Shown here one piece after another: positions 1 through 11,367 of a DNA stretch of 11,367 nt; position 1 is the stretch's first letter; the number at the start of each line of letters is the position of its first letter. The DNA lies in IMG/VR virus record IMGVR_UViG_2718217897_000002; one strand, given 5' to 3'. Below the pieces are notes generated by a model, which saw nothing but the letters and a program-made list of their open reading frames with translations, was not told where the DNA came from and did no database searches. Source of the DNA: a virus. Taxonomy: Duplodnaviria > Heunggongvirae > Uroviricota > Caudoviricetes. The translations under genes were made by a program, and so were the position numbers.

Positions 1-192
1 TTAGTTGCTACGCGATTCGGCTATACGTTGATCGATCCAGTCATCGATCTCGCTTTCAATAAAAGCTATTGCGCGAGAACCAATCTTGACTGATTGGGGG
101 AATTGTCCTCGGCTCATCAGAGCATATACCCACGCCTTGCTATAGCCAGTGCGTTTCAAAACGTCAGATAGCCGAATCAGCGACTTTTTCAT
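1..192 (-). CDS. alpA: AlpA-family HTH regulator of prophages/integrative islands (excisionase-like), 63 aa
   Basis: Complete ORF (ATG at 192, TAA at 3-1). Small basic protein with the AlpA pattern (LIRLSDVLKRTGYSKAWVYALMSRGQFP...IAFIESEIDDWI). Lies beside an integrase fragment, as in P4/CP4-57-type islands. Family assigned from recalled homology. Confidence 0.75.
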   Translation of the reverse strand: MKKSLIRLSDVLKRTGYSKAWVYALMSRGQFPQSVKIGSRAIAFIESEIDDWIDQRIAESRSN

Positions 193-293
193 ATCTACCT
201 CGTAATACGTTGCTTGACTATGTGAGATAGTAAATCATTGTTTTTTTAAGTTTTCTGTGAATTTGGAGAAAAAGTTTTCGGGAAAGGAATTGT

Positions 294-335
294 CCCAAAT
301 TGGGCGTTTGTTTTCGTCTCTCCAGCCAATTTGGG
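294..335. promoter_or_regulatory. Pair of near-palindromic boxes CCCAAATTGGG (294-304) and CCAATTTGGG (326-335) upstream of alpA; candidate operator
   Basis: Seen directly: the two boxes are reverse complements of each other, each nearly self-palindromic, about 21 bp apart, in the 156-bp gap between the orf246 stop and the alpA start. Confidence 0.25.
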
Positions 336-348
336 AACATCAATTATT

Positions 349-1089
349 TTACTTGGTTATCTTTCCCAAAAAATTGGGTGCGTGCCGCTGCAAAGTCTTT
401 TTTAGAAGCGTTCTTAGATTATCCATGGTCATGCCAGCATCATTGTATTCTTCACTGTACTTTGCGATGTTGTTTGCTGCTTTCTCGCACACCGCGGACT
501 GGTTGAGCTTTCCATTCTTTCTAACGTCCTCGCTGGATTCATATAAAGCAATCGCCAGCCCAGCAATCATTTTCCAGGCGGTGTTTTTGCCGCGCCAGTC
601 ACTGGGGAGCGACCCACTTTCTGTTTCCTCTGCTATCGGTTCATCAATGTTGTGATCTTCCAGTTCTGGGAAGAAGCTCACAAGCTCGGACCGCTTGAAA
701 TAAAACGAATCGTAAGACCCATACCAATCATCCTCATCATCGTGATATAAAAAGTCTTCTCCTTTCCTAACGTTGAAAGTCCCTTCTTCCCCCGGTATCG
801 GGCTCTCCCTGTATTCATGCCCCATAGCCAGAAGACCTAAAAACTCCACACACTGCTTTTCAAAGTCTTCATTAGTCGTAAAACCAGATACCCAATCGAA
901 CTGATAAAAGCCCAGCCCCCCTAAAGTATCTGGTTTAGTCTTGCTCAATCTGTAGTTACTTAAGATAGCGGCAGCTATCATTCTTTCATTTTCATTGTTT
1001 AGTCTTGCCAGTTCGCTGATCAGATTACCAAACCAGATTTTATCTTCTGACTCGTTATAAAACGCATCTAGTCCTGTCATCTTAGTCAC
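349..1089 (-). CDS. Hypothetical acidic protein, 246 aa, between the integrase fragment and alpA
   Basis: Long ORF with GTG start at 1089 preceded by SD GGAAGGAGA (6-nt spacer). Overlaps the integrase-fragment stop by 8 bp. No motif I recognise; Asp/Glu-rich central region. Confidence 0.6.
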   Translation of the reverse strand: MTKMTGLDAFYNESEDKIWFGNLISELARLNNENERMIAAAILSNYRLSKTKPDTLGGLGFYQFDWVSGFTTNEDFEKQCVEFLGLLAMGHEYRESPIPGEEGTFNVRKGEDFLYHDDEDDWYGSYDSFYFKRSELVSFFPELEDHNIDEPIAEETESGSLPSDWRGKNTAWKMIAGLAIALYESSEDVRKNGKLNQSAVCEKAANNIAKYSEEYNDAGMTMDNLRTLLKKTLQRHAPNFLGKITK

Positions 1090-1813
1090 GGCGTGTTCTC
1101 CTTCCGAACTCGTAAGGGCTTATGTGTATTTCTCGATTGGCGTCCAGATAATCTGCCCACCATTGAAGCATTAGTTTGCGCTCTTCTAAGTAATCAGCCT
1201 TGTGCTTGTAGGCTCTTTTAACGTCTTTATATTCTTTGTGGCTCATCTGGCGCTCTACTGCGTCCTCCTGCCACAAACCGGACTCCATCAGGGAACTACA
1301 GGCTGTGGCACGGAATCCATGTCCAGTTACGTCCTCTTGCGTGTTATAGCCCATTAAGCGTAATGCCTTGTTTACCGTGTTTTCACTCATCACGCCTTTG
1401 GTGTTTCTTTCATTCGGAAACACAACATCGTAGCTTCCGCTTAGTTCTCTCAACTGCTTTACAATAGAAACAGCCTGACGGCTAAGAAGCACGATATGTT
1501 CGTCTTTTCCCGTCTTTGTGCCACGGGTGGAAAACCTCACACCATCGATAGGCTCTCTTTTTTTAGGGATAATCCACTCAGCCCGATCAAGGTCAAACTC
1601 TTTCCAACGGGCAAACCTTAACTCGCTTGAACGAACAAAGGTCAACATGGTTAGCTCAATGGCAAGGCGGGTAAGAGGATTACCTTTAAAGCTGCCCAAT
1701 CGAGTGAAAAAGTCTGGTAAATCTCTGGGATGTAGTGCGGCATGATGCTTAGTTTCATATTGCATTAGCCGATATTCCTCAGAGCTTGGAAGAATTGCTG
1801 ATGCATATGGCAC
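1082..1813 (-). pseudogene. 5'-truncated P4-type tyrosine integrase (C-terminal catalytic domain only, 243 codons)
   Basis: Translation aligns with the C-terminal half of P4-family integrases (HGFRATACS...KRAYKHKADYLEERKLMLQWWADYLD, parallel to the IntS C-terminus at 6680-7837). The frame is closed by a stop only 8 codons upstream of the first possible start (1838-1840), and no N-terminal arm/core-binding domain is encoded upstream in any frame. Confidence 0.7.
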
Positions 1814-1829
1814 TCTTGCAAGAGCAGCT

Positions 1830-2270
1830 GTGAAACCTCAGCAGTATATTGAAAGAACAGGGAGAACTGCCAATGTACTACGCGATCTTGATGCTGGTTT
1901 ATCCAACGTTACATCAACAGTGTTAAATGCAATTGCCAACTCAACATCAGGTGCCATTGTTGGTGGAGCAGGAGGCGGGGGCGTTGCTGGCGCTGCCGCA
2001 GGTGCTTTAATTGGCGCCGGGTTAAAAGGCGCTGTATCTAAAATTGCCACCACACGTAGTGGTCGGTATGCGATAGAGAAAGCAGTTCAGGAAGCAACTA
2101 AAGCAGTAAGAGCAGGCGGAAGCAAAGAAGCATTAGTGGCGGCTGAACGCAGATTTATGGCAAATAAAGCTGCCGTAAAAGCAATACGTGATACAGTCGG
2201 AAACGAAGAGTTCAATCGCTTAGCGAGGGCTGGCATTGTAGCGTCGCTAAGCGGAATAGCACAGGAGTAA
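1830..2270 (+). CDS. Gly/Ala-rich glycine-zipper protein (146 aa); possibly the 3' remnant of a larger gene
   Basis: ORF with GTG start at the deletion junction. Central segment AIVGGAGGGGVAGAAAGALIGAGLKGAV is a glycine-zipper-like hydrophobic stretch flanked by Ala/Lys/Arg-rich helices. More GC-rich than the neighbouring cassette. Minus-strand ORFs here are Pro/Ala-rich antisense artefacts. Function unknown. Confidence 0.4.
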   Translation: MKPQQYIERTGRTANVLRDLDAGLSNVTSTVLNAIANSTSGAIVGGAGGGGVAGAAAGALIGAGLKGAVSKIATTRSGRYAIEKAVQEATKAVRAGGSKEALVAAERRFMANKAAVKAIRDTVGNEEFNRLARAGIVASLSGIAQE

Positions 2271-2594
2271 TTAATCATCCATGGATGGATTGAGCTTATC
2301 TCGTGTTGATGTGGCGATTTGTCCTACATTTCTAAGCCAAGATTTCAAATCCTTGATATTGTCATTGATTTCATGAATATCTTCTTTTTTTAATCTGTTA
2401 ACATTATTTTCAATAATTTCAATGGATTGCTCAATATCAGATATAGTGAATGATAGTTTGTTCTTCTCATCTTTTATTGAGTTTTTAAGTGCTTCGTTCT
2501 CAGTCTTGAGGTCAGATATCTTTTGTTTTAAAGATGCCAGTTGGTACTGAACCACAATGAGTGCGATAGCTATCACGATAACTGTTGTATACAC
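2271..2594 (-). CDS. N-terminally membrane-anchored coiled-coil protein (about 107 aa)
   Basis: GTG at 2594 is preceded on the minus strand by a strong SD AAGGAGG (plus 2602-2608) with a 5-nt spacer. Product begins with a hydrophobic helix (YTTVIVIAIALIVVQY) followed by a heptad-like Lys/Glu/Asn-rich region. The longer ORF reaching 2810 would overlap the divergent gene and has no SD, so the short start is preferred. Confidence 0.5.
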   Translation of the reverse strand: MYTTVIVIAIALIVVQYQLASLKQKISDLKTENEALKNSIKDEKNKLSFTISDIEQSIEIIENNVNRLKKEDIHEINDNIKDLKSWLRNVGQIATSTRDKLNPSMDD

Positions 2595-2624
2595 ACCAAC
2601 CTCCTTAGTTTTGCGCAGGATACC

Positions 2625-2990
2625 ATGAAAAAAGTTAACATTGGAAACGTACCAAAGATGCTCGTTCCGCTCTTTGAGAGCGGTACAATTGTGTTTTGTA
2701 GAGACTTTCCAGAATGGCAACGCCTGCATCAAAAACTTGGCGTTGACGTGCATGACTCGGACGCCAACGGAGCGTCTCATACAATGAGTAGCGAGAATGG
2801 TGTTTTGCATGTGATAGGCGTGTTCAATGGCAAACTATCTACTATTGCCCATGAGTGCGCTCACATGGCATTCGATATCTGCTCAAGGGTAGGTGTTGAT
2901 GTTGAACCAGGAAGAGCCAACGAGACTTACTGCTACTTAATGAGCAGGCTTGTTGAGTTCTGCGAGCGACATATCAAAAAGCCGGAGTGA
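2625..2990 (+). CDS. Small HExxH-motif protein, possible minimal Zn-metallopeptidase (ImmA/IrrE-like motif), about 121 aa
   Basis: ATG at 2625 with AGGA at 2617-2620. Motif STIAHECAHMAFD (HECAH encoded at 2850-2864) with Glu 19 and 25 residues downstream. The ORF-track start at 2541 would overlap the divergent gene. Stop lies inside a hairpin (2979-2998). Fold and activity unverified. Confidence 0.5.
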   Translation: MKKVNIGNVPKMLVPLFESGTIVFCRDFPEWQRLHQKLGVDVHDSDANGASHTMSSENGVLHVIGVFNGKLSTIAHECAHMAFDICSRVGVDVEPGRANETYCYLMSRLVEFCERHIKKPE

Positions 2991-2998
2991 CCCGGCTT
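2979..2998. terminator. Hairpin between the convergent HExxH gene and the small basic protein gene; candidate bidirectional terminator
   Basis: Stem AAGCCGG (2979-2985) / CCGGCTT (2992-2998), 6-nt loop. On the minus strand it is followed at once by a T-run (plus 2971-2978 is an A-run); on the plus strand it is followed by T-rich GATTATTACTTTTT. Confidence 0.4.
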
Positions 2999-3003
2999 GA
3001 TTA

Positions 3004-3183
3004 TTACTTTTTGCTGTCTGGAGTTCGCTTATCTAATACCCAGCCATGACCTGGCTTTGTTGTTGGTGGAAGCCTTTCGTTGTCCTTGACGGTGGCAAAA
3101 TTGTCTTTCTTACCGCCGCGTGGGCCAACTTCTTGGTATATTCCGCCGTTTTTTCCTGTGTTTTCACCTGGTTTTTTCGCCAT
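3004..3183 (-). CDS. Small basic Gly/Lys/Pro-rich hydrophilic protein (about 59 aa)
   Basis: ATG at 3183 preceded by SD GAGGT (6-nt spacer). Product MAKKPGENTGKNGGIYQEVGPRGGKKDNFATVKDNERLPPTTKPGHGWVLDKRTPDSKK, no hydrophobic segment. It loosely recalls small uncharacterised YjzC-like proteins, but I cannot verify that. The overlapping plus ORF 3046-3240 is judged antisense. Confidence 0.5.
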   Translation of the reverse strand: MAKKPGENTGKNGGIYQEVGPRGGKKDNFATVKDNERLPPTTKPGHGWVLDKRTPDSKK

Positions 3184-3275
3184 GATATACCTCAACATAC
3201 ACCCGTTATTGGGCGATTAAATATTGATCTCATTTTATAAGTAGTCAATATGGCCCAGGTAAATGCAAAAATTAA

Positions 3276-3297
3276 CCCACCGTCAGGTGGTTTTTTT
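3276..3297 (+). terminator. Rho-independent terminator-like hairpin (CCACC-GTCA-GGTGG followed by T7)
   Basis: 5-bp GC-rich stem 3277-3281 / 3286-3290, tetraloop, seven T at 3291-3297. An A-run precedes it, so it could work in both directions. Confidence 0.5.
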
Positions 3298-3348
3298 GTA
3301 CAAATCCTTCAGCCAGTACATAACTACTGACAGATAACCAACGCAACG

Positions 3349-3372
3349 ATCCAGCTTCGGCTGGGTTTTTTT
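3349..3372 (+). terminator. Rho-independent terminator (stem with TTCG tetraloop followed by T7)
   Basis: Stem ATCCAGC (3349-3355) / GCTGGGT (3360-3366), TTCG loop, then T-run 3366-3372. Confidence 0.55.
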
Positions 3373-3561
3373 ATGCCCAAAATTCACCGTAGCCATGCTG
3401 CGGAGATTCCTTGTATCTGGAGCAAATTAAATGACAGATATTATAAATGGGAATTGTTATTTAATAATGTTTGAAAATAAAAATCATGGACGATAGGAAT
3501 AAAGGTATTACTTGTTTTTATTTTTGTAAGTGACGCATTAAGCGCATAAATAATATGCCTG

Positions 3562-3590
3562 TTGATCAAGATTCTTGAGTATTGTAAAAT
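3562..3590 (+). promoter_or_regulatory. Candidate sigma70 promoter for the tailspike operon
   Basis: TTGATC (3562-3567), 17-bp spacer, TAAAAT (3585-3590), in an AT-rich leader about 125 bp upstream of the tailspike start. Confidence 0.4.
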
Positions 3591-3714
3591 AATCGTTTTG
3601 TTCATGTTGCATGGTTTTTAAATGAATAGAAGGTTATTTTTCAAAACAATTGCATCTTTGTCTGCAGTCATTCCGTTTTCTTCAATATCTAAATCTTCAA
3701 ACAGGATGACTAAT

Positions 3715-6300
3715 ATGCCTGATATAACCCCAAATGTTGTGATAGGTATGCCATCGCAACTCTTCACAATGGCTAGCTCTTTTAAAACCGTAGCAAATGG
3801 AAAAATTTATATCGGTAAGATTGACACAGATCCGGTAAATCCAGAAAACCAGATTCCAGTATATCTGGAACGAGAAGATGGTACTTATGTTCAGGTGCCA
3901 CAGCCAATCGTTATCAATGCTGCTGGATACCCGGTATACAACGGACAGATTTCCAAATTCGTTACCGTGCAAGGCCATTCTATGGCTGTTTACGATGCAT
4001 ATGGTACGCAGCAGTTCTATTTTCCGAATGTGCTTAAGTACGATCCTGATCAATTAAGACAACAATTAGAAGACCCGGAAGGTGCTAAAAAATATCATGA
4101 ATTGCAGATGTCTCGGTGGCGTGATGACGCTGACCCTCGCGGATGGGGAGCAAAAGGTGATGGCATCACCGATGACACATTATCTTTTCAAGAGTTAGAA
4201 AAACAAATCACAGGAAGGATTGTTGATCTAAGGGGTAATACATATATAACAGATCAAGTTTATGATGGAAATAAGTATATAAATGGCTATTTTCGCACAG
4301 AGAATCGATTACTGCCAGATGCTGATTTTACTGAAAAAAGAATACAAACTATAAAAAAGGGGATGTATACAGGTTTCAGATCTTCTACTCCTAATCATGT
4401 TAAGTCAGGGTTGCGACTGGCAACAATTAAAAATACTGTCATACAAGGTGCTGTTCTTGATTATTATGACAGTGTTCTTTATTGCTTGGTAAATGTGAGT
4501 GGCAGCGTTAGTTCTGGTGATGAAGTTAATAAAGTTGTTGCTTATAATTGGTTTGGGAATGAAGAGTTAACTCCTCTTTGGGAGACTAAAGGTAGTAGAG
4601 AATTAGGACATCAATGTCTTGGTTTAACCATAGGGCGCGTTGGTTTTCGTAACACAAGAGGCCAGTTACAGATATGGGGGTTAGCTGGCACAACTAAAGG
4701 AGAGGATCGCGCAAAGTATATCACCAGATTCACCCCTACTGATGGTGGTGAAATTGAACCAGAGTTTTTTCTCATATGGGAAGATGGTTACGAGAATCAG
4801 GTAAATGTTTTATGCACCGACCCTATGAGTCGATGGCTGATTACTACAGCAAAACGTTATGTTGGCCCAGGTGAGAGCCCATCAACACCAGATCAAATTC
4901 GCTATTATGTAAAAGTATTTGATACCAGTAAATTTATTAACCCGCAGGCGTACAATTACGATTATCGTAATGAAGCAACTTTTGAATTTGAAATTGCTGA
5001 TTTTGTGAGGGATATGCAAACAGTTGCGTGTGACGGTACTGCTATTTATTTTTGTCAGGCTGGATCTGCATATTCTTCAACCAGAAAATATTTGCATCAG
5101 TACACACTTGATGGTGTTTATCTTGGGGTGCAGCAAATACAGGCAGGTGCAGGAAGAGCCTATGAAATAGCAGATCCAAATGATACCGGAACGCCAGATG
5201 TTAGCAATCTTACATATGAACCAGAAGCAATGTTTTTCCGTATGATTGCAGGTGGGTATGACCTTGTAATGGGGAATACAAATGGCATACCAGATGGTGA
5301 TAGTGGGCGAGAAACTACATTTTACACATTAATGCCACAACAGGTAATGCATGTAAAAACAACATCAAGAAATCAGCCTGGTATTATCATTGATTCAACC
5401 CATGATATTGTCACTAACTCTGGTTTGTTAAGCCTTGGTAAAATTATGCCTGGTGGTGAAGTCATAGAGCAGGCAAACCTTGATGACAAAGGATTCACTG
5501 TTTCGAGGGCAACAACACAAGCCGCCCGTTATGATGCAAAGAATACGTTACGGAATGTAACTTTTCATGTTAGTGAAAAAGGTGATACCGGTATTTATGA
5601 CTTTACCAATGCTCAATGGATATTTAAATCTCCCTTATCAACATCTTCATATTCGTATATCGGTCAGTCAGCGGAGGTTAATGGCTATATAAGTGCTAAT
5701 AAAGATAATACGTCATCATGTGGGACATCATCTAAACGGTGGACGCAAGTATATGCAACTAATGGGGCAATAAATACTTCAGACCAGACATTGAAAACAA
5801 AGCCACTGACAGTAGAGCAACTTTCAGAAATCATGGAGGTGGATCAGGATGCAATTCTTGACGCATGGGGTGACGTAAATATTATCGTTTACCAGTGGTT
5901 GTCCGATATTAAGGCTAAAGGTTCGGATACTGCTCGTTGGCATTTCGGAGCAATTGCACAGCAGGTAAGAGATGCGTTTCTTGCAAAGGGGATAGATGGA
6001 ACAAGATTTGGCTTGCTATGTCATGATAAATGGGATGATGAGTACCAACCTGTAATGGCACAGCGCAAGGTGTCATTTATAGCTAAATCCCCTGAAGGAG
6101 AAGACATCGTTCACGAATACTTTGAAGAATACGATACTGGTGACACGGAACTGGTTGTACATGCTGGTGAGCGTTGGGGATTGCGTCCAGATGAATGTTT
6201 GTGGTTGGAGGCTGCATTCCAGCGAAGAAGGTGTGAACGTATTGAATCTCGTTTAACAGAGCTTGAATTGATAATTAAAAAAGCAAAAGAGATAGAGTAG
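3715..6300 (+). CDS. Phage tailspike protein: P22/Sf6-type N-terminal head-binding domain, central beta-helix (pectate-lyase-like) receptor-binding/depolymerase domain, C-terminal intramolecular chaperone (peptidase S74-like) domain
   Basis: N-terminus [18 protein letters not shown]...[27 protein letters not shown]...[15 protein letters not shown]...NVLKYDPDQ closely matches the P22/Sf6 tailspike particle-binding domain as I recall it. [13 protein letters not shown] (4141-4179) is the usual start of a right-handed beta-helix. C-terminal SDQTLK...[12 protein letters not shown] resembles the auto-cleaving chaperone domain of endosialidase and T5 L-shaped fibres. Start chosen at the ATG with AGGA 8 nt upstream; the ORF stays open back to 3622, with 3706 as an alternative start. 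Confidence 0.9.
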
Positions 6301-6588
6301 ATGGATAAAACCCCAATTCATCACGCACTTTGCGCTGTGGTCGCACAGGTACTGGTTGGTCTTTTTACCGGAAACTGGGCTTACGGAGCGATAGCCGGTT
6401 GTACATTCTTCATCGCTCGTGAACATACCCAGGCAGAATATCGCTGGATTGAAATGTTCGGACATGGCAAGCGAATGAATATGCCGTGGTGGGGCGGTTT
6501 TGATCCGCGCGCTTGGGATGTGGCAAGCCTGATGGATTTTTCTTTCCCAATTATCGGATGCTTATTGGTATGGATTCTTGCATCGTAG
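6301..6588 (+). CDS. Small integral membrane protein (95 aa), co-transcribed with the tailspike gene; unknown function
   Basis: ATG at 6301 directly follows the tailspike TAG (6298-6300). Hydrophobic N-terminal segment (ALCAVVAQVLVGLFTGNWAYGAIAGCTFFIA) and C-terminal segment (FPIIGCLLVWILAS) with a Trp-rich loop between. Sits where P22-like phages carry O-antigen modification genes. Confidence 0.55.
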   Translation: MDKTPIHHALCAVVAQVLVGLFTGNWAYGAIAGCTFFIAREHTQAEYRWIEMFGHGKRMNMPWWGGFDPRAWDVASLMDFSFPIIGCLLVWILAS

Positions 6589-6622
6589 TTAACACAGAGT
6601 TACCTATGAGACAAAACTAAGG

Positions 6623-6659
6623 TACACAAAGCTTTGCACTGGATTGCAAGGCTTTGTGT
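6623..6659. terminator. Long imperfect hairpin (about 15 bp stem) between the convergent membrane-protein and integrase genes; candidate bidirectional terminator
   Basis: ACACAAAGC-T-TTGCA / 6-nt loop CTGGAT / TGCAA-G-GCTTTGTGT (6624-6659). On the minus strand it is followed by TTAGTTTTG. No clean T-run on the plus strand. Confidence 0.3.
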
Positions 6660-6679
6660 CATTCGATAGTTAAGGTGGA

Positions 6680-7837
6680 TCACTCCACCTTTTCATCAAG
6701 CCAATCCGCCCACCACTGCATCATTTCTCTGCGCTTATCGAGATACTGAGCGTGGTTGTAAATTCCACGCACAGAACCGCCGTTGGCATGTGCCAGTTGC
6801 ACTTCAATAGCATCAGCAGGCCATTCGTGCTCGTTCATAATCGTGCTGAATTCATGCCTGAATCCGTGACCGCTTTCCAGACCTTCATAGCCGATTTGTT
6901 TGATCACAAGCAATACCGCGTTCTCGCAGATTGGCTTCTTCTTATCGTTGCGCCCGGAAAAAACAAACTCTGATACTGGTTTAGTGATTGAGCTTAGTGT
7001 AGTGAGAAGTTCAACCACCTGGTCTGACATCGGGACAACATGAATTTTGCGTCCCTTCATCACACTGGCGTCGATGGTGATAATCCTGTTTTCAAAATCG
7101 ACGTTCTTCCATAGCATGGAACGAAGCTCTTTTGTTCTTAGGGCTGTGTAGCGTAAAATTTTGGTAGCAATGAGCGATACGATACTTCCTGAAAATGTTG
7201 CAAGTGCTTTGTTGAATGCCGGGATCTGGTCGGCAGGTAAAAATGGGAAGTTCTTCTTGCGGTATCCCTTCATGGCGTCAGCAAGGTCAGGTGCCGGGTT
7301 ATATTTAGCCCTTCCGGTGACAATAGCGTAACGGAAAACCTCGCCGCATCTTCTGCGGGCTTTGTTGGCTCGCTCCATTGCACCGCGATCTTCAAATCTG
7401 CGGATTACTTCCAGAAGTTGCATCGGCTCAATATCCTGAATTTCAAGGGCGCCGATGATAGGTAAAATGTCGTCATCAAACATTTTGGCAAGTTCATTTG
7501 CATAGCCTACTGACCAGACTTGCTTCTTGTGCTCGTACCATTCCTTGTAAATCGCACAAAAGGAATTGTTGTTAGACGAAGCCTTTTTCGCCTTTACCGG
7601 ATCGATGCCAACCGAGATGTCTTTCCTCGCAGTCCATGCTTTATCCCTTGCCTCCTGCAAAGTCATAAGCGGATATTTTCCGACGGTCAGGATTTTCTCC
7701 TTACCGTCAATCTTGTAGCGAAGCTGCCAGACCTTTTTTCCGGATACAGGGACATAAAGGTACAGGCCATTACCATCGAGAAGGCGGTATGGTTTTTCTT
7801 TCGGCTTTGCTGCTTCAATCTGCTTAACGGTGAGCAT
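6680..7837 (-). CDS. intS: P4-type tyrosine integrase, IntS-like (385 aa)
   Basis: Translation from the internal ATG (MLTVKQIEAAKPKEKPYRLLDGNGLYLYVPVSGKK...) through ...HAQYLDKRREMMQWWADWLDEKVE matches prophage integrase IntS as I recall it. Gene starts 161 bp downstream of the argW 3' end in the same orientation, the classic tRNA-int arrangement. The ORF track extends 12 codons further to a GTG at 7873. Confidence 0.9.
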   Translation of the reverse strand: MLTVKQIEAAKPKEKPYRLLDGNGLYLYVPVSGKKVWQLRYKIDGKEKILTVGKYPLMTLQEARDKAWTARKDISVGIDPVKAKKASSNNNSFCAIYKEWYEHKKQVWSVGYANELAKMFDDDILPIIGALEIQDIEPMQLLEVIRRFEDRGAMERANKARRRCGEVFRYAIVTGRAKYNPAPDLADAMKGYRKKNFPFLPADQIPAFNKALATFSGSIVSLIATKILRYTALRTKELRSMLWKNVDFENRIITIDASVMKGRKIHVVPMSDQVVELLTTLSSITKPVSEFVFSGRNDKKKPICENAVLLVIKQIGYEGLESGHGFRHEFSTIMNEHEWPADAIEVQLAHANGGSVRGIYNHAQYLDKRREMMQWWADWLDEKVE

Positions 7838-7998
7838 GGGTAAAAATCCGGTGGGTAAAATTATTTTATCCACTTTTTACCCGTCATGGTGTGCGGCTGT
7901 CAACGATCTGACGCGAACCATGCCGAACTGTGAATCTAAGGAAGGCTTGATATTCAAGGGATTTTGCGGACTGGTACGGATGGGAGCGAACTGATAAA

Positions 7999-8073
7999 TG
8001 GTGTCCCCTGCAGGAATCGAACCTGCAATTAGCCCTTAGGAGGGGCTCGTTATATCCATTTAACTAAGAGGAC
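7999..8073 (-). tRNA. argW: tRNA-Arg (anticodon CCU)
   Basis: Minus-strand 75-nt sequence GTCCTCTTAGTTAAATGGATATAACGAGCCCCTCCTAAGGGCTAATTGCAGGTTCGATTCCTGCAGGGGACACCA folds as a cloverleaf: 7-bp acceptor stem, D stem GTTA/TAAC, anticodon stem AGCCC/GGGCT with loop CTCCTAA (anticodon CCT), T stem GCAGG/CCTGC with loop TTCGATT, encoded CCA. Confidence 0.9.
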
Positions 8074-10669: not shown

Positions 10670-10945
10670 GTGGCTTCTGTTTCTATCAGCTGTCCCTCCT
10701 GTTCAGCTACTGACGGGGTGGTGCGTAACGGCAAAAGCACCGCCGGACATCAGCGCTATCTCTGCTCTCACTGCCGTAAAACATGGCAACTGCAGTTCAC
10801 TTACACCGCTTCTCAACCCGGTACGCACCAGAAAATCATTGATATGGCCATGAATGGCGTTGGATGCCGGGCAACTGCCCGCATTATGGGCGTTGGCCTC
10901 AACACGATTTTACGTCACTTAAAAAACTCAGGCCGCAGTCGGTAA
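10670..10945 (+). CDS. insA: IS1 InsA (transposition repressor / N-terminal part of the InsAB' transposase), 91 aa
   Basis: GTG start. Product contains the zinc-finger CPSC...CSHC and matches IS1 InsA. Confidence 0.9.
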
Positions 10946-11367
10946 CCTCGCGCATACAGCCGGGCAGTGACGTCATCGTCTGCGCGGAAATGGACGAACA
11001 GTGGGGCTATGTCGGGGCTAAATCGCGCCAGCGCTGGCTGTTTTACGCGTATGACAGGCTCCGGAAGACGGTTGTTGCGCACGTATTCGGTGAACGCACT
11101 ATGGCGACGCTGGGGCGTCTTATGAGCCTGCTGTCACCCTTTGACGTGGTGATATGGATGACGGATGGCTGGCCGCTGTATGAATCCCGCCTGAAGGGAA
11201 AGCTGCACGTAATCAGCAAGCGATATACGCAGCGAATTGAGCGGCATAACCTGAATCTGAGGCAGCACCTGGCACGGCTGGGACGGAAGTCGCTGTCGTT
11301 CTCAAAATCGGTGGAGCTGCATGACAAAGTCATCGGGCATTATCTGAACATAAAACACTATCAATAA
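10864..11367 (+). CDS. insB: IS1 InsB reading frame (catalytic part of the InsAB' transposase made by -1 frameshifting), 167 aa
   Basis: Product matches IS1 InsB. Frame is -1 relative to insA and overlaps its 3' end. The stop codon is the last three bases of the window. Confidence 0.9.
10921..10927 (+). other. IS1 programmed -1 ribosomal frameshift motif (A6C)
   Basis: AAAAAAC lies in the insA/insB overlap, where IS1 is known to shift frame to make InsAB'. Confidence 0.6.

What the first reader, a model, noticed from the sequence alone, without database searches (positions are those of the whole stretch)
3715..6300. Tailspike combining a P22-type head-binding domain, a beta-helix enzyme domain and a C-terminal self-cleaving chaperone
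The N-terminal 120 or so residues are P22/Sf6-like, which defines the phage type. The centre starts with the pectate-lyase-like [13 protein letters not shown] signature. The last 173 or so residues carry the intramolecular-chaperone signature, with a predicted autocleavage Ser encoded at 5779-5781 (SDQTLK). The gene has its own sigma70-like promoter (3562-3590) and sits next to the integrase in a remnant lacking other virion genes, so it may be maintained as a surface-glycan depolymerase or receptor-binding module of unknown specificity.
Basis: partly seen in the sequence, partly recalled or inferred. Interest (0 to 1): 0.5.

Follow-up and report, generated by a model that had tools for sequence, protein, structure and literature searches.

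The report
Prophage tailspike with five-bladed propeller

Summary
The ORF at 3715-6300 is real and intact (861 aa). Two of the three domain calls hold. Residues 1-113 are a P22/Sf6 head-binding domain (Pfam E 4.5e-61). Residues 689-861 are an endosialidase-type self-cleaving chaperone, with Ser689 (nt 5779-5781) and Lys694 aligned to the endoNF Ser911/Lys916 dyad.

The protein is the CUS-3 tailspike scaffold with its central module swapped.

It does sit in a remnant: a deletion fused a gp16 fragment to a truncated integrase of a neighbouring element. That deletion is very recent (0-2 differences in 9 kb from the undeleted form), so nothing shows selective maintenance. Lying next to the integrase is normal for argW-integrating P22-like prophages.

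Near-identical copies occur in O7, O15 and O120 strains, so the receptor is unknown and is not evidently serogroup-specific.

The parts
3715..6300 (+). Tailspike gene, 861 aa plus stop (96.8 kDa precursor; predicted mature protein aa 1-688, 76.8 kDa)
   Evidence: ORF and translation. Pfam hits. Masses. The exact protein is found on 13 public contigs. 99.5% nt identity to copies in other E. coli prophages, with 9 synonymous and 3-4 non-synonymous differences.
3715..4053 (+). P22/Sf6-type head-binding (virion-attachment) domain, aa 1-113
   Evidence: Pfam PF09008, E 4.5e-61. Sf6 gp14 chain 7sg7, aa 1-118, E 1.7e-58; P22 chains E 1e-41 to 1e-47. 69% identity to the CUS-3 tailspike over aa 1-197.
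4054..4293 (+). Helical linker plus endosialidase-type N-terminal cap, aa 114-193; includes [13 protein letters not shown] at 4141-4179
   Evidence: Pfam End_N_terminal, E 2.3e-5, below the curated cut-off. The same motif is in the CUS-3 endosialidase. The family profile matches endoNF residues 2-57 and also the N-caps of beta-helix proteins. Many unrelated tailspikes share only this stretch.
4411..5328 (+). Five four-stranded blades of a beta-propeller, aa 233-538 (three more strands from about aa 187). Predicted receptor-binding and possibly catalytic module
5428..5631 (+). All-beta domain after the propeller, aa 572-639 (tower-like)
   Evidence: Seven strands, pLDDT about 71-88 in the model. 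No sequence family assigned.
5632..5778 (+). Stalk segment preceding the cleavage site, aa 640-688; homologous to the end of the endoNF stalk
   Evidence: Match to chain 3gw6 starts at aa 648. 35% identity to CUS-3 from aa 656. Disordered in the monomer model, as expected for a trimeric intertwined stalk.
5779..6297 (+). C-terminal intramolecular chaperone domain (Peptidase_S74), aa 689-861, 20.0 kDa. Predicted nucleophile Ser689 (5779-5781) and Lys694 (5794-5796)
   Evidence: Pfam PF13884, E 4.5e-10, above the cut-off. 3gw6, E 2.7e-33, with S689 aligned to position 911 and K694 to K916. GA-1 gp12 chaperone 3gud, E 1.4e-14.
3444..3714 (+). Conserved AT-rich leader that travels with the cassette. 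Contains a promoter-like TTGATC-17-TAAAAT at 3562-3590 and an AGGA ribosome-binding site at 3703-3706
   Evidence: Present at 86-99% identity upstream of different tailspikes in 43 E. coli genomes. Both hexamers are invariant while the spacer varies. The match count is at chance level.
3431..3443 (+). Vestigial first codons (ATGACAGATATTA, MTDI) of an earlier tailspike gene, joined to the CUS-3-type bsq1 boundary sequence; marks the left edge of the cassette
   Evidence: Window 3314-3443 matches CUS-3 L003 5884-6013 at 96%, running 13 nt into siaK1.
6301..6588 (+). orf95, a small membrane protein translationally coupled to the tailspike (TAG ATG). It occupies the slot where CUS-3 carries neuO
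   Evidence: Translation. phrog_1443, function unknown, E 5.8e-55. Found after tail-fibre or tailspike genes in lambdoid and P22-like phages. Cassette similarity ends at 6657.
6680..7873 (-). IntS-type tyrosine integrase (longest ORF 397 aa; called as 385 aa on public contigs)
   Evidence: NCBIfam PRK09692, E 2.3e-70. 96% nt identity to the CUS-3 int-attL region. Gene calls.
7999..8073 (-). tRNA-Arg(CCU) argW, with the 16-bp CUS-3 attL core at 8013-8028
   Evidence: ARAGORN. Rfam. Exact match to the core, the only copy in the window.
1764..2270 (+). 3' fragment (168 codons) of the gp16 DNA-transfer (ejection) protein gene; the only other virion-gene remnant
   Evidence: phrog_770 positions 558-666 of 668. 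99.2% identical to strain A3 gp16. Frame check.
1763..1771 (.). Deletion junction between the truncated integrase of a P4-like element and gp16, through a CATTA microhomology
   Evidence: blastn overlap of the two parental alignments. Three-way comparison. The same junction occurs in three independent assemblies.
1082..1771 (-). 3' part of the integrase of the neighbouring P4-like element (690 of 1287 nt remain)
   Evidence: 99.9% identical to E. coli AST19, where this integrase is full length and directly abuts argW. Pfam and NCBIfam match the C-terminal half only.
2271..3198 (.). Three small P22-like accessory ORFs between gp16 and the tailspike (phrog_5962, phrog_1365, phrog_3202). The immI genes (mnt/arc/ant) are missing
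   Evidence: PHROGs. Comparison with A3, MLI114 and CUS-3.
3277..3367 (+). Two terminator-like hairpins (3277-3290 and 3348-3367) upstream of the leader
   Evidence: Terminator scan: 8 found, 3.2 expected. The position corresponds to the ant-tailspike boundary of CUS-3.

Best explanation
The gene encodes the tailspike of a P22-like (Lederbergvirus, CUS-3-type) temperate phage of E. coli.

Inferred mechanism, from homology to characterised parts:
- Three chains are brought together by the C-terminal intramolecular chaperone (aa 689-861), which nucleates folding of the trimeric stalk.
- The chaperone then cuts itself off at Ser689, using Lys694 as the base. This leaves a 77-kDa mature subunit.
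- The N-terminal head-binding domain (aa 1-113) plugs the trimer onto the tail hub.
- The distal receptor module is not a beta-helix. It is one five-bladed beta-propeller per subunit, of the type that forms the platform of the staphylococcal phage phi11 receptor-binding protein, followed by a small all-beta domain.

Overall, the protein is the CUS-3 endosialidase tailspike scaffold (head-binding domain, cap, stalk end and chaperone) with the sialidase propeller replaced by an unrelated propeller.

I infer that the propeller binds a surface glycan through a pocket lined by the family-invariant residues H299, Q300, E502 and E504. I lean (about 55:45) towards it also cleaving or modifying that glycan, as the characterised P22-like tailspikes do. 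The receptor is unknown and does not track one O serogroup.

In this window the gene is a passenger. A P22-like prophage integrated at argW next to a P4-like element, and an illegitimate deletion from inside gp16 to inside the neighbour's integrase removed the gp14, gp7 and gp20 genes, the 5' part of gp16 and the remaining early-region genes of an already defective prophage. The head, lysis and regulatory genes were already gone in the immediate progenitor. What is left is the attL-proximal end: integrase, orf95, tailspike and a few small ORFs.
For: Shown:
- The ORF is intact with no decay: 9 synonymous and 3-4 non-synonymous differences from prophage copies.
- Head_binding, E 4.5e-61; Sf6/P22 structures match aa 1-118.
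- Peptidase_S74 is above its cut-off, and the Ser/Lys pair aligns with endoNF S911/K916.
- CUS-3 tailspike: 69% identity over aa 1-197, 35% over aa 656-851, nothing in between.
- The AlphaFold2 model of the centre (pLDDT 79.6) has five four-stranded blades.
- Relatives found at E 1e-22 to 1e-41 pass the Pfam cut-off for PF21311, Phage_RBD_prop.
- The central module is attached to P22-type, T7-type and Tail_spike_N (PF18668) adaptors in other proteins.
- Context: the CUS-3 prophage has the same order gp16, small ORFs, (immI), tailspike, moron, int, attL.
- Junction mapping. The junction is present in three assemblies, and contigs without the deletion are 99.98-100% identical.
- The same protein (WP_032229949.1, three residues different from the window's) occurs in an O7 strain and an O120 strain, and a near-identical one in an O15 strain.

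Inferred: trimerisation, cleavage, attachment to the tail, glycan binding and catalysis.
Against: - The window's central domain gives no direct Pfam hit, even at E 10. A profile of the family does not reach phi11 Gp45 by sequence. The propeller assignment therefore rests on a predicted structure plus transitive homology.
- The blade count was read from secondary structure and fold matches, not from coordinates. Three extra N-terminal strands leave a six-blade reading possible.
- The full-length model was poor (pLDDT 48.6), so the domain arrangement in the trimer is not modelled.
- No enzymatic activity is reported for the closest structural relatives.
- Carriage in O7, O15 and O120 hosts could reflect O-antigen switching after lysogeny rather than serogroup-independent recognition. 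Two of the three carrier prophages examined are defective.
Confidence: 0.78

Rival explanations
1. One reading: the centre is a right-handed beta-helix (pectate-lyase-like) depolymerase, and the gene is kept by selection in the remnant as a surface-glycan depolymerase.
For: - The GAKGDGxTDD motif weakly matches the N-terminal caps of beta-helix proteins: polygalacturonase 7b8b E 1e-4, HK620 tailspike 2vbe E 0.015, phiAB6 tailspike 6e-5.
- The ORF is intact, and its promoter-like site has conserved hexamers.
Against: - No beta-helix Pfam family hits.
- The confident model shows long antiparallel four-strand blades, and every top fold match is a propeller.
- The same motif precedes the propeller of the CUS-3 and K1F endosialidases.
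- The deletion that made the remnant is too recent for retention to be informative.
Confidence: 0.04
2. The propeller is a pure adhesin, a lectin-like receptor binder as in phi11 Gp45, with no depolymerase or esterase activity.
For: - The closest structures (phi11, 80alpha, P68, NF5) are receptor-binding proteins with no reported enzymatic activity. Phi11 is proposed to bind GlcNAc in a cavity lined by Gln/Thr residues.
- Identical protein in hosts of different O types fits binding to a conserved ligand.
- Phages with propeller-type modules tend to have broader capsule range in Klebsiella (PMC12491483).
Against: - The characterised P22-like tailspikes seen here are receptor-destroying enzymes: the P22 chain is deposited as an endorhamnosidase and the CUS-3 tailspike is an endosialidase. 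That this holds for all characterised P22-like tailspikes is general knowledge, not tested here.
- E502, E504, H299 and D440 are conserved across 22-40% identical relatives.
- Five-bladed glycoside hydrolases are the next-best fold matches. This is also true for phi11, so the argument is weak.
Confidence: 0.4
3. It is a K1-specific endosialidase tailspike, like that of CUS-3.
For: - It shares the head-binding domain, cap, stalk end and chaperone with CUS-3 and K1F, and a weak End_N_terminal hit.
- Foldseek lists endoNF at E 3e-9.
Against: - No sequence similarity to the endosialidase catalytic region.
- TM-score to endoNF is only 0.25.
- No End_tail_spike Pfam hit for the window protein.
Confidence: 0.02
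4. Domesticated or exported form: translation from the in-frame ATG at 3622 adds a twin-arginine-like signal (MNRRLFFK...), sending the protein to the envelope for a host function.
For: - The 31-codon extension is open in three diverged leader variants, with RR and FFK kept.
- The promoter-like site lies 32 nt upstream of it.
Against: - No Shine-Dalgarno sequence precedes 3622, whereas 3715 has AGGA at the right spacing.
- Substitutions in the extension are mostly non-synonymous.
- The same leader sits in intact prophages, where the protein must be a virion part.
- An open 31-codon stretch is not improbable by chance.
- RefSeq and other gene callers start at 3715 or 3706.
Confidence: 0.02

Closest known systems
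CUS-3 endosialidase tailspike (siaK1; E. coli K1 prophage at argW)
   Same: - Same prophage type, same integration site and same gene order: gp16, small ORFs, tailspike, moron, int, attL.
- 69% identity over the head-binding domain and cap, including the GWGAxGDGxxDDT motif.
- 35% identity over the stalk end and self-cleaving chaperone.
- A documented example of whole-module exchange on a P22-type N-terminus (PMC5380687).
   Different: CUS-3's centre is an endosialidase module specific for polysialic acid (its K1F relative is annotated as an endosialidase beta-propeller). Here the centre has no sequence similarity to it and is predicted to be a five-bladed propeller of a different family. CUS-3 has neuO downstream; this locus has orf95.
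Staphylococcus phage phi11 Gp45 receptor-binding protein (PDB 5efv) and its relatives in 80alpha, P68 and NF5; Pfam PF21311 Phage_RBD_prop
   Different: About 14% identity and no direct sequence hit. Gp45 belongs to siphophage and podophage baseplates of a Gram-positive host, binds wall teichoic acid GlcNAc, has a coiled-coil stem, and has no self-cleaving chaperone.
K1F endosialidase endoNF and its C-terminal intramolecular chaperone (PDB 3gw6, 3gvj)
   Same: The chaperone domain matches at E 2.7e-33, with the Ser/Lys cleavage dyad aligned. The N-terminal cap is shared.
   Different: T7-type N-terminal adaptor and a different catalytic propeller.
P22 gp9 and Sf6 gp14 tailspikes
   Same: Head-binding domain (E 1e-41 to 1e-58) and the same position in the genome.
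   Different: The P22 and Sf6 chains match the window protein only in the head-binding domain and none of them matches the chaperone region. That their receptor modules are right-handed beta-helix endoglycosidases without a cleaved chaperone is established knowledge, not tested here.
Bacillus phage GA-1 neck appendage protein gp12
   Same: Best match among predicted viral structures (E 7e-20). Its C-terminal chaperone (PDB 3gud) also matches (E 1.4e-14). It appears to have the same propeller-plus-chaperone design.
   Different: phi29-like phage of a Gram-positive host, 15% identity, different adaptor.
Tail spike protein of N4-like Escherichia phage Pollock
   Same: The only phage isolate with a relative of the whole distal part (31.5% identity over aa 114-835).
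   Different: Different virion adaptor, and no reported receptor (one search found only the genome announcement).

Membership tests
P22-like tailspike (Lederbergvirus gp9 type) | N-terminal head-binding domain (Pfam PF09008) | tested here: met
   E 4.5e-61, full-length match 1-113 of 113. Sf6 and P22 structures.
P22-like tailspike (Lederbergvirus gp9 type) | Gene located after the ejection-protein genes at the end of the late operon of a P22-like prophage | tested here: met
   A gp16 fragment lies upstream in the window. Full gp14-gp7-gp20-gp16 lie upstream in identical contigs, and a complete late region in MLI114.
P22-like tailspike (Lederbergvirus gp9 type) | Assembles as a trimer on the virion tail | not testable with these tools
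   Needs protein biochemistry or virion proteomics.
Endosialidase-type C-terminal intramolecular chaperone (Peptidase_S74) | Pfam PF13884 match above the curated cut-off | tested here: met
   40.1 bits against a cut-off of 22. 3gw6 E 2.7e-33.
Endosialidase-type C-terminal intramolecular chaperone (Peptidase_S74) | Catalytic Ser and Lys five residues apart at the domain start | tested here: met
   S689/K694 align with position 911 (Ala in the 3gw6 mutant) and K916. The motif is conserved in seven of the eight close relatives; P0007 lacks the chaperone region.
Endosialidase-type C-terminal intramolecular chaperone (Peptidase_S74) | Autoproteolytic release of the domain after trimer folding | not testable with these tools
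   Requires expression and SDS-PAGE or mass spectrometry.
Right-handed beta-helix depolymerase (pectate-lyase-like) | Beta-helix fold or a Pfam beta-helix family in the central region | tested here: not met
   No such Pfam hit. The model and fold searches give a propeller. Only the N-cap motif matches weakly.
Phage five-bladed propeller receptor-binding platform (Pfam PF21311, phi11 Gp45 type) | Direct profile match to PF21311 | tested here: not met
   No Pfam hit for aa 176-562, even at E 10.
Phage five-bladed propeller receptor-binding platform (Pfam PF21311, phi11 Gp45 type) | Homology through intermediates that pass the curated cut-off | tested here: met
   P0015 (E 2.2e-41 to the window centre), P0016 (6.2e-29) and P0019 (1.3e-22) score 28.6-31.0 bits against a cut-off of 23.7.
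Phage five-bladed propeller receptor-binding platform (Pfam PF21311, phi11 Gp45 type) | Five-bladed propeller fold most similar to Gp45 | tested here: met
Endosialidase (GH58) | Catalytic endosialidase propeller domain (Pfam End_tail_spike and related families) | tested here: not met
   No similarity to CUS-3 between aa 197 and 656. No Pfam hit. TM-score 0.25 to endoNF.
Five-bladed propeller glycoside hydrolases (GH32/43/62/68) | Acidic catalytic residues in the central funnel | not tested

The most novel reading that the evidence does not exclude
The propeller module defines a rare family of enterobacterial tailspikes that recognise, and perhaps degrade, a surface glycan common to many E. coli serogroups, such as enterobacterial common antigen, LPS core or colanic acid. 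This would give P22-like phages serogroup-independent adsorption. In addition, the cassette's own conserved promoter would let remnants such as this one still express the protein.
Probability: 0.12. Interest if true: 0.55.

Novelty: new variant of a known kind. Interest (0 to 1): 0.3.

Why it matters
P22-like tailspikes are the textbook case of beta-helix O-antigen endoglycosidases, and prophage tailspikes are used to predict host serogroup. This one shows the same virion adaptor and the endosialidase-type chaperone carrying a phi11-type five-bladed propeller. That module is known structurally only from phages of Gram-positive bacteria, and its chemistry in phages is still unclear.

If its ligand were a conserved glycan, it would be useful for broad-range phage or tailocin engineering. 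It would also be a caution for serogroup prediction from prophage tailspikes.

As it stands, the finding is an ordinary example of module exchange and prophage decay.

Tried and rejected
- **Full-length AlphaFold2 model:** with the 9-sequence alignment it gave pLDDT 48.6, too poor to use.
- **Pfam on the propeller alone:** nothing, even at E 10.
- **Family profile against PDB sequences:** it reached only the cap and the chaperone, not phi11 Gp45.
- **Receptor from host serogroup:** carriers are O7, O120 and O15, so no assignment was possible. The O7 wzy search listed only 60 of 96 genomes, so three carriers (A26, MLI121, SW070919) remain untyped.
- **Literature:** searches for a characterised relative found none. 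Pollock has only a genome announcement.
- **Exact-protein look-up:** the 864-aa start variant was not on record.
- **Rfam:** only argW in the window.
- **Promoter scan:** the 3562-3590 site is not statistically distinguishable from background.
- **Twin-arginine-like upstream extension:** considered and set aside. There is no ribosome-binding site, the changes are non-synonymous, and the same leader occurs in intact prophages.
- **Assembly artefact at the junction:** rejected, because the same junction is present in three independent assemblies.
Full report
**The observation**

The window has one long ORF on the plus strand ending at 6300.
- An AGGA lies nine bases upstream.
- The product aligns residue for residue with the N-termini of the Sf6 and P22 tailspikes.
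- RefSeq annotates near-identical genes from the same codon.
- The exact 861-aa protein is on record on 13 public contigs.

Pfam finds the head-binding domain over aa 1-113 (E 4.5e-61) and Peptidase_S74 beginning at the Ser encoded at 5779-5781. It also gives a sub-threshold End_N_terminal match over the [13 protein letters not shown] region. The coordinates and two of the three domain calls are therefore correct.

**The chaperone**

The last 226 residues match the K1F endosialidase stalk-plus-chaperone fragment 3gw6 (E 2.7e-33). In that alignment, SDQTLK lies on ANGERK of the S911A mutant, so Ser689 and Lys694 occupy the positions of the endoNF cleavage dyad. Cleavage would leave a 76.8-kDa mature chain and release a 20.0-kDa fragment. 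The cleavage itself is inferred, not shown.

**The centre is a propeller, not a beta-helix**

- No solved structure matches aa 200-640 by sequence.
- Among 50,697 phage records, only the N4-like phage Pollock has a relative of the whole distal part, at 31.5% identity. CUS-3 and K1F match only the two ends.
- The word-indexed search of 5.8 billion proteins found eight close relatives, at 61-99% identity.
- The exhaustive HMMER search found 216 hits, about forty of which span the centre at 22-41% identity.
- An AlphaFold2 model of aa 119-692, built with a 28-sequence alignment, reached pLDDT 79.6 and pTM 0.69. It shows five successive sets of four antiparallel strands (aa 233-538), then a small all-beta domain.
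- Foldseek against the PDB ranks the receptor-binding proteins of staphylococcal phages phi11, 80alpha, P68 and NF5 first (E about 1e-12), then endoNF, then WD40 propellers.
- Among predicted viral structures, the best match is the neck appendage protein of Bacillus phage GA-1, whose chaperone domain also matches by sequence.
- The window's centre gives no Pfam hit of its own. Three relatives detected at E 1e-22 to 1e-41 do pass the curated cut-off of PF21311, [quoted passage not shown].

I conclude that the central module is a five-bladed propeller of that superfamily. The caveat is that this rests on a predicted model and transitive homology.

BLASTP against the CUS-3 endosialidase tailspike gives:
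- 69% identity over aa 1-197, including RGWGAIGDGVHDDT;
- 35% identity over aa 656-851, including the cleavage motif;
- nothing in between.

A profile of the family matches this cap in endoNF residues 2-57 and, weakly, in the N-caps of genuine beta-helix proteins. The motif is thus a shared cap, and many unrelated tailspikes share only this stretch. The protein is best described as the CUS-3 scaffold with its central module exchanged. The same central module is fused elsewhere to T7-type and Tail_spike_N (PF18668) adaptors. This is the well-documented modular evolution of tailspikes (PMC5380687).

**Genomic context**

The window is E. coli DNA at the argW tRNA locus.
- From 7998 onward it is 99.9% identical to strain AST19: argW, yfdC, mlaA and an IS1 in yfdF.
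- Positions 1-1771 are 99.9% identical to the P4-like element that in AST19 directly abuts argW with a full-length integrase.
- Positions 6647-8028 are 96% identical to the CUS-3 integrase-attL end, and the 16-bp attL core sits in the tRNA.
- The CUS-3 prophage has the same order: gp16, small ORFs, (mnt, ant), tailspike, neuO, int, attL. A tailspike converging on the integrase is therefore the normal layout for this phage group.

What makes this a remnant is the left junction. At 1763-1771 the 3' 690 nt of the neighbour's integrase are fused, through a CATTA microhomology, to the last 168 codons of gp16.

The identical junction occurs in an NCBI assembly, an ENA metagenome and a Logan assembly, at 99.98-100% identity over up to 10.6 kb. 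Other contigs are 99.98-100% identical from 1763 onward but still carry full gp16, gp20, gp7 and gp14. Two of those progenitor contigs (L008 and L009; the third, L013, is too short to tell) are themselves deletion derivatives, because kil and erf abut gp14.

The deletion seen in the window is therefore very recent. The intact state of the gene says nothing about selection for it. The 9 synonymous and 3-4 non-synonymous differences from other copies reflect its history in phages.

**Expression signals**

The TTGATC-17-TAAAAT site at 3562-3590 is a 9-of-12 match of a kind no more frequent here than in shuffles. It lies, however, in a 271-nt leader (3444-3714) found at 86-99% identity upstream of different tailspikes in 43 genomes. 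In the three variants, both hexamers are invariant while the spacer varies. A cassette-borne promoter is plausible but untested.

Immediately upstream, at 3431-3443, lie the first codons of an older tailspike gene attached to the CUS-3 "bsq1" boundary sequence. Similarity to other carriers ends at 6657. The mobile cassette is therefore 3444-6657: leader, tailspike and orf95.

**Receptor**

Thirteen complete E. coli genomes carry the gene at about 99.5% identity.
- AST19 and EC0026B have an O7 gene cluster. E100341 and AST205 appear among the O7 wzy hits.
- A3 has an O120 cluster.
- MLI114 has an O15 cluster.
- AST19 and A3 encode the very same protein accession.

Host serogroup thus gives no specificity. 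Either the ligand is not the O unit, or the O-antigen changed after lysogeny. The A3 and AST19 prophages are defective, while the MLI114 late region looks complete.

Whether the propeller only binds or also cleaves is open. Phi11-type propellers have no reported enzymatic activity, and propeller modules in phages are acknowledged to be poorly understood (PMC12491483). On the other side, characterised P22-like tailspikes such as those of P22 and CUS-3 are enzymes, and H299, Q300 and E504 are invariant, with E502 and D440 nearly so, across distant relatives.

**Verdict**

This is a real, intact, modular prophage tailspike. The head-binding and chaperone calls are right, the beta-helix call is wrong, the remnant call is right, and the maintenance idea is unsupported. 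It is a new domain combination within a well-known kind, of modest interest.

Noticed in passing
window 6301-6588 (+): orf95 is a 95-aa protein with two or three hydrophobic segments. Its ATG directly follows the tailspike stop (TAG ATG). It belongs to phrog_1443 (function unknown). Copies at 81-89% identity sit right after tail-fibre or tailspike genes in lambdoid phages (phage 21, ev017) and in P22-like JEP4. It occupies the lysogenic-conversion slot where CUS-3 has neuO.
   Followed up: partly
window 3622-3714 (+): An in-frame upstream extension, [31 protein letters not shown], resembles a twin-arginine signal peptide. It stays open (ATG or GTG start) in three diverged copies of the leader. 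It has no ribosome-binding site, and its substitutions are mostly non-synonymous.
   Followed up: partly
window 3431-3443 and 3314-3443: A vestigial start (ATGACAGATATTA, MTDI) of an earlier P22-type tailspike gene is still attached to the CUS-3-type bsq1 boundary sequence. It marks where the present leader-tailspike-orf95 cassette recombined in.
   Followed up: yes
window 1-1771: Part of a P4-like integrative element (AlpA regulator at 1-192, a 246-aa unknown protein, truncated integrase). It is 99.9% identical to the element that abuts argW in strain AST19, showing tandem occupancy of argW before the deletion.
   Followed up: yes
L016 (E. coli AST19, dacD-sbcB) and L008/L009 (argW): The same tailspike-orf95 pair survives in two other, independent deletion derivatives of P22-like prophages: a truncated DNA-transfer gene (gp7 by position) abutting a truncated exonuclease gene in AST19, and kil abutting gp14 in L008/L009. 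The late-operon end seems to be what remains when these prophages decay. I did not test whether this exceeds expectation.
   Followed up: partly
window 3199-3443: The immI region (mnt/arc/ant) present in MLI114, A3 and CUS-3 is absent. About 250 nt are missing relative to A3. Two terminator-like hairpins (3277-3290, 3348-3367) remain.
   Followed up: no
window 10864-11367 (+): An IS1 transposase gene runs off the right end of the window. In AST19 the same IS1 interrupts yfdF.
   Followed up: partly
P0015 (1678 aa): A distant relative combines an End_N_terminal cap, the five-bladed propeller and a C-terminal GDSL esterase-like domain (the GDSL hit is below the Pfam cut-off). In some relatives the propeller may therefore be paired with a separate enzymatic domain.
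   Followed up: no
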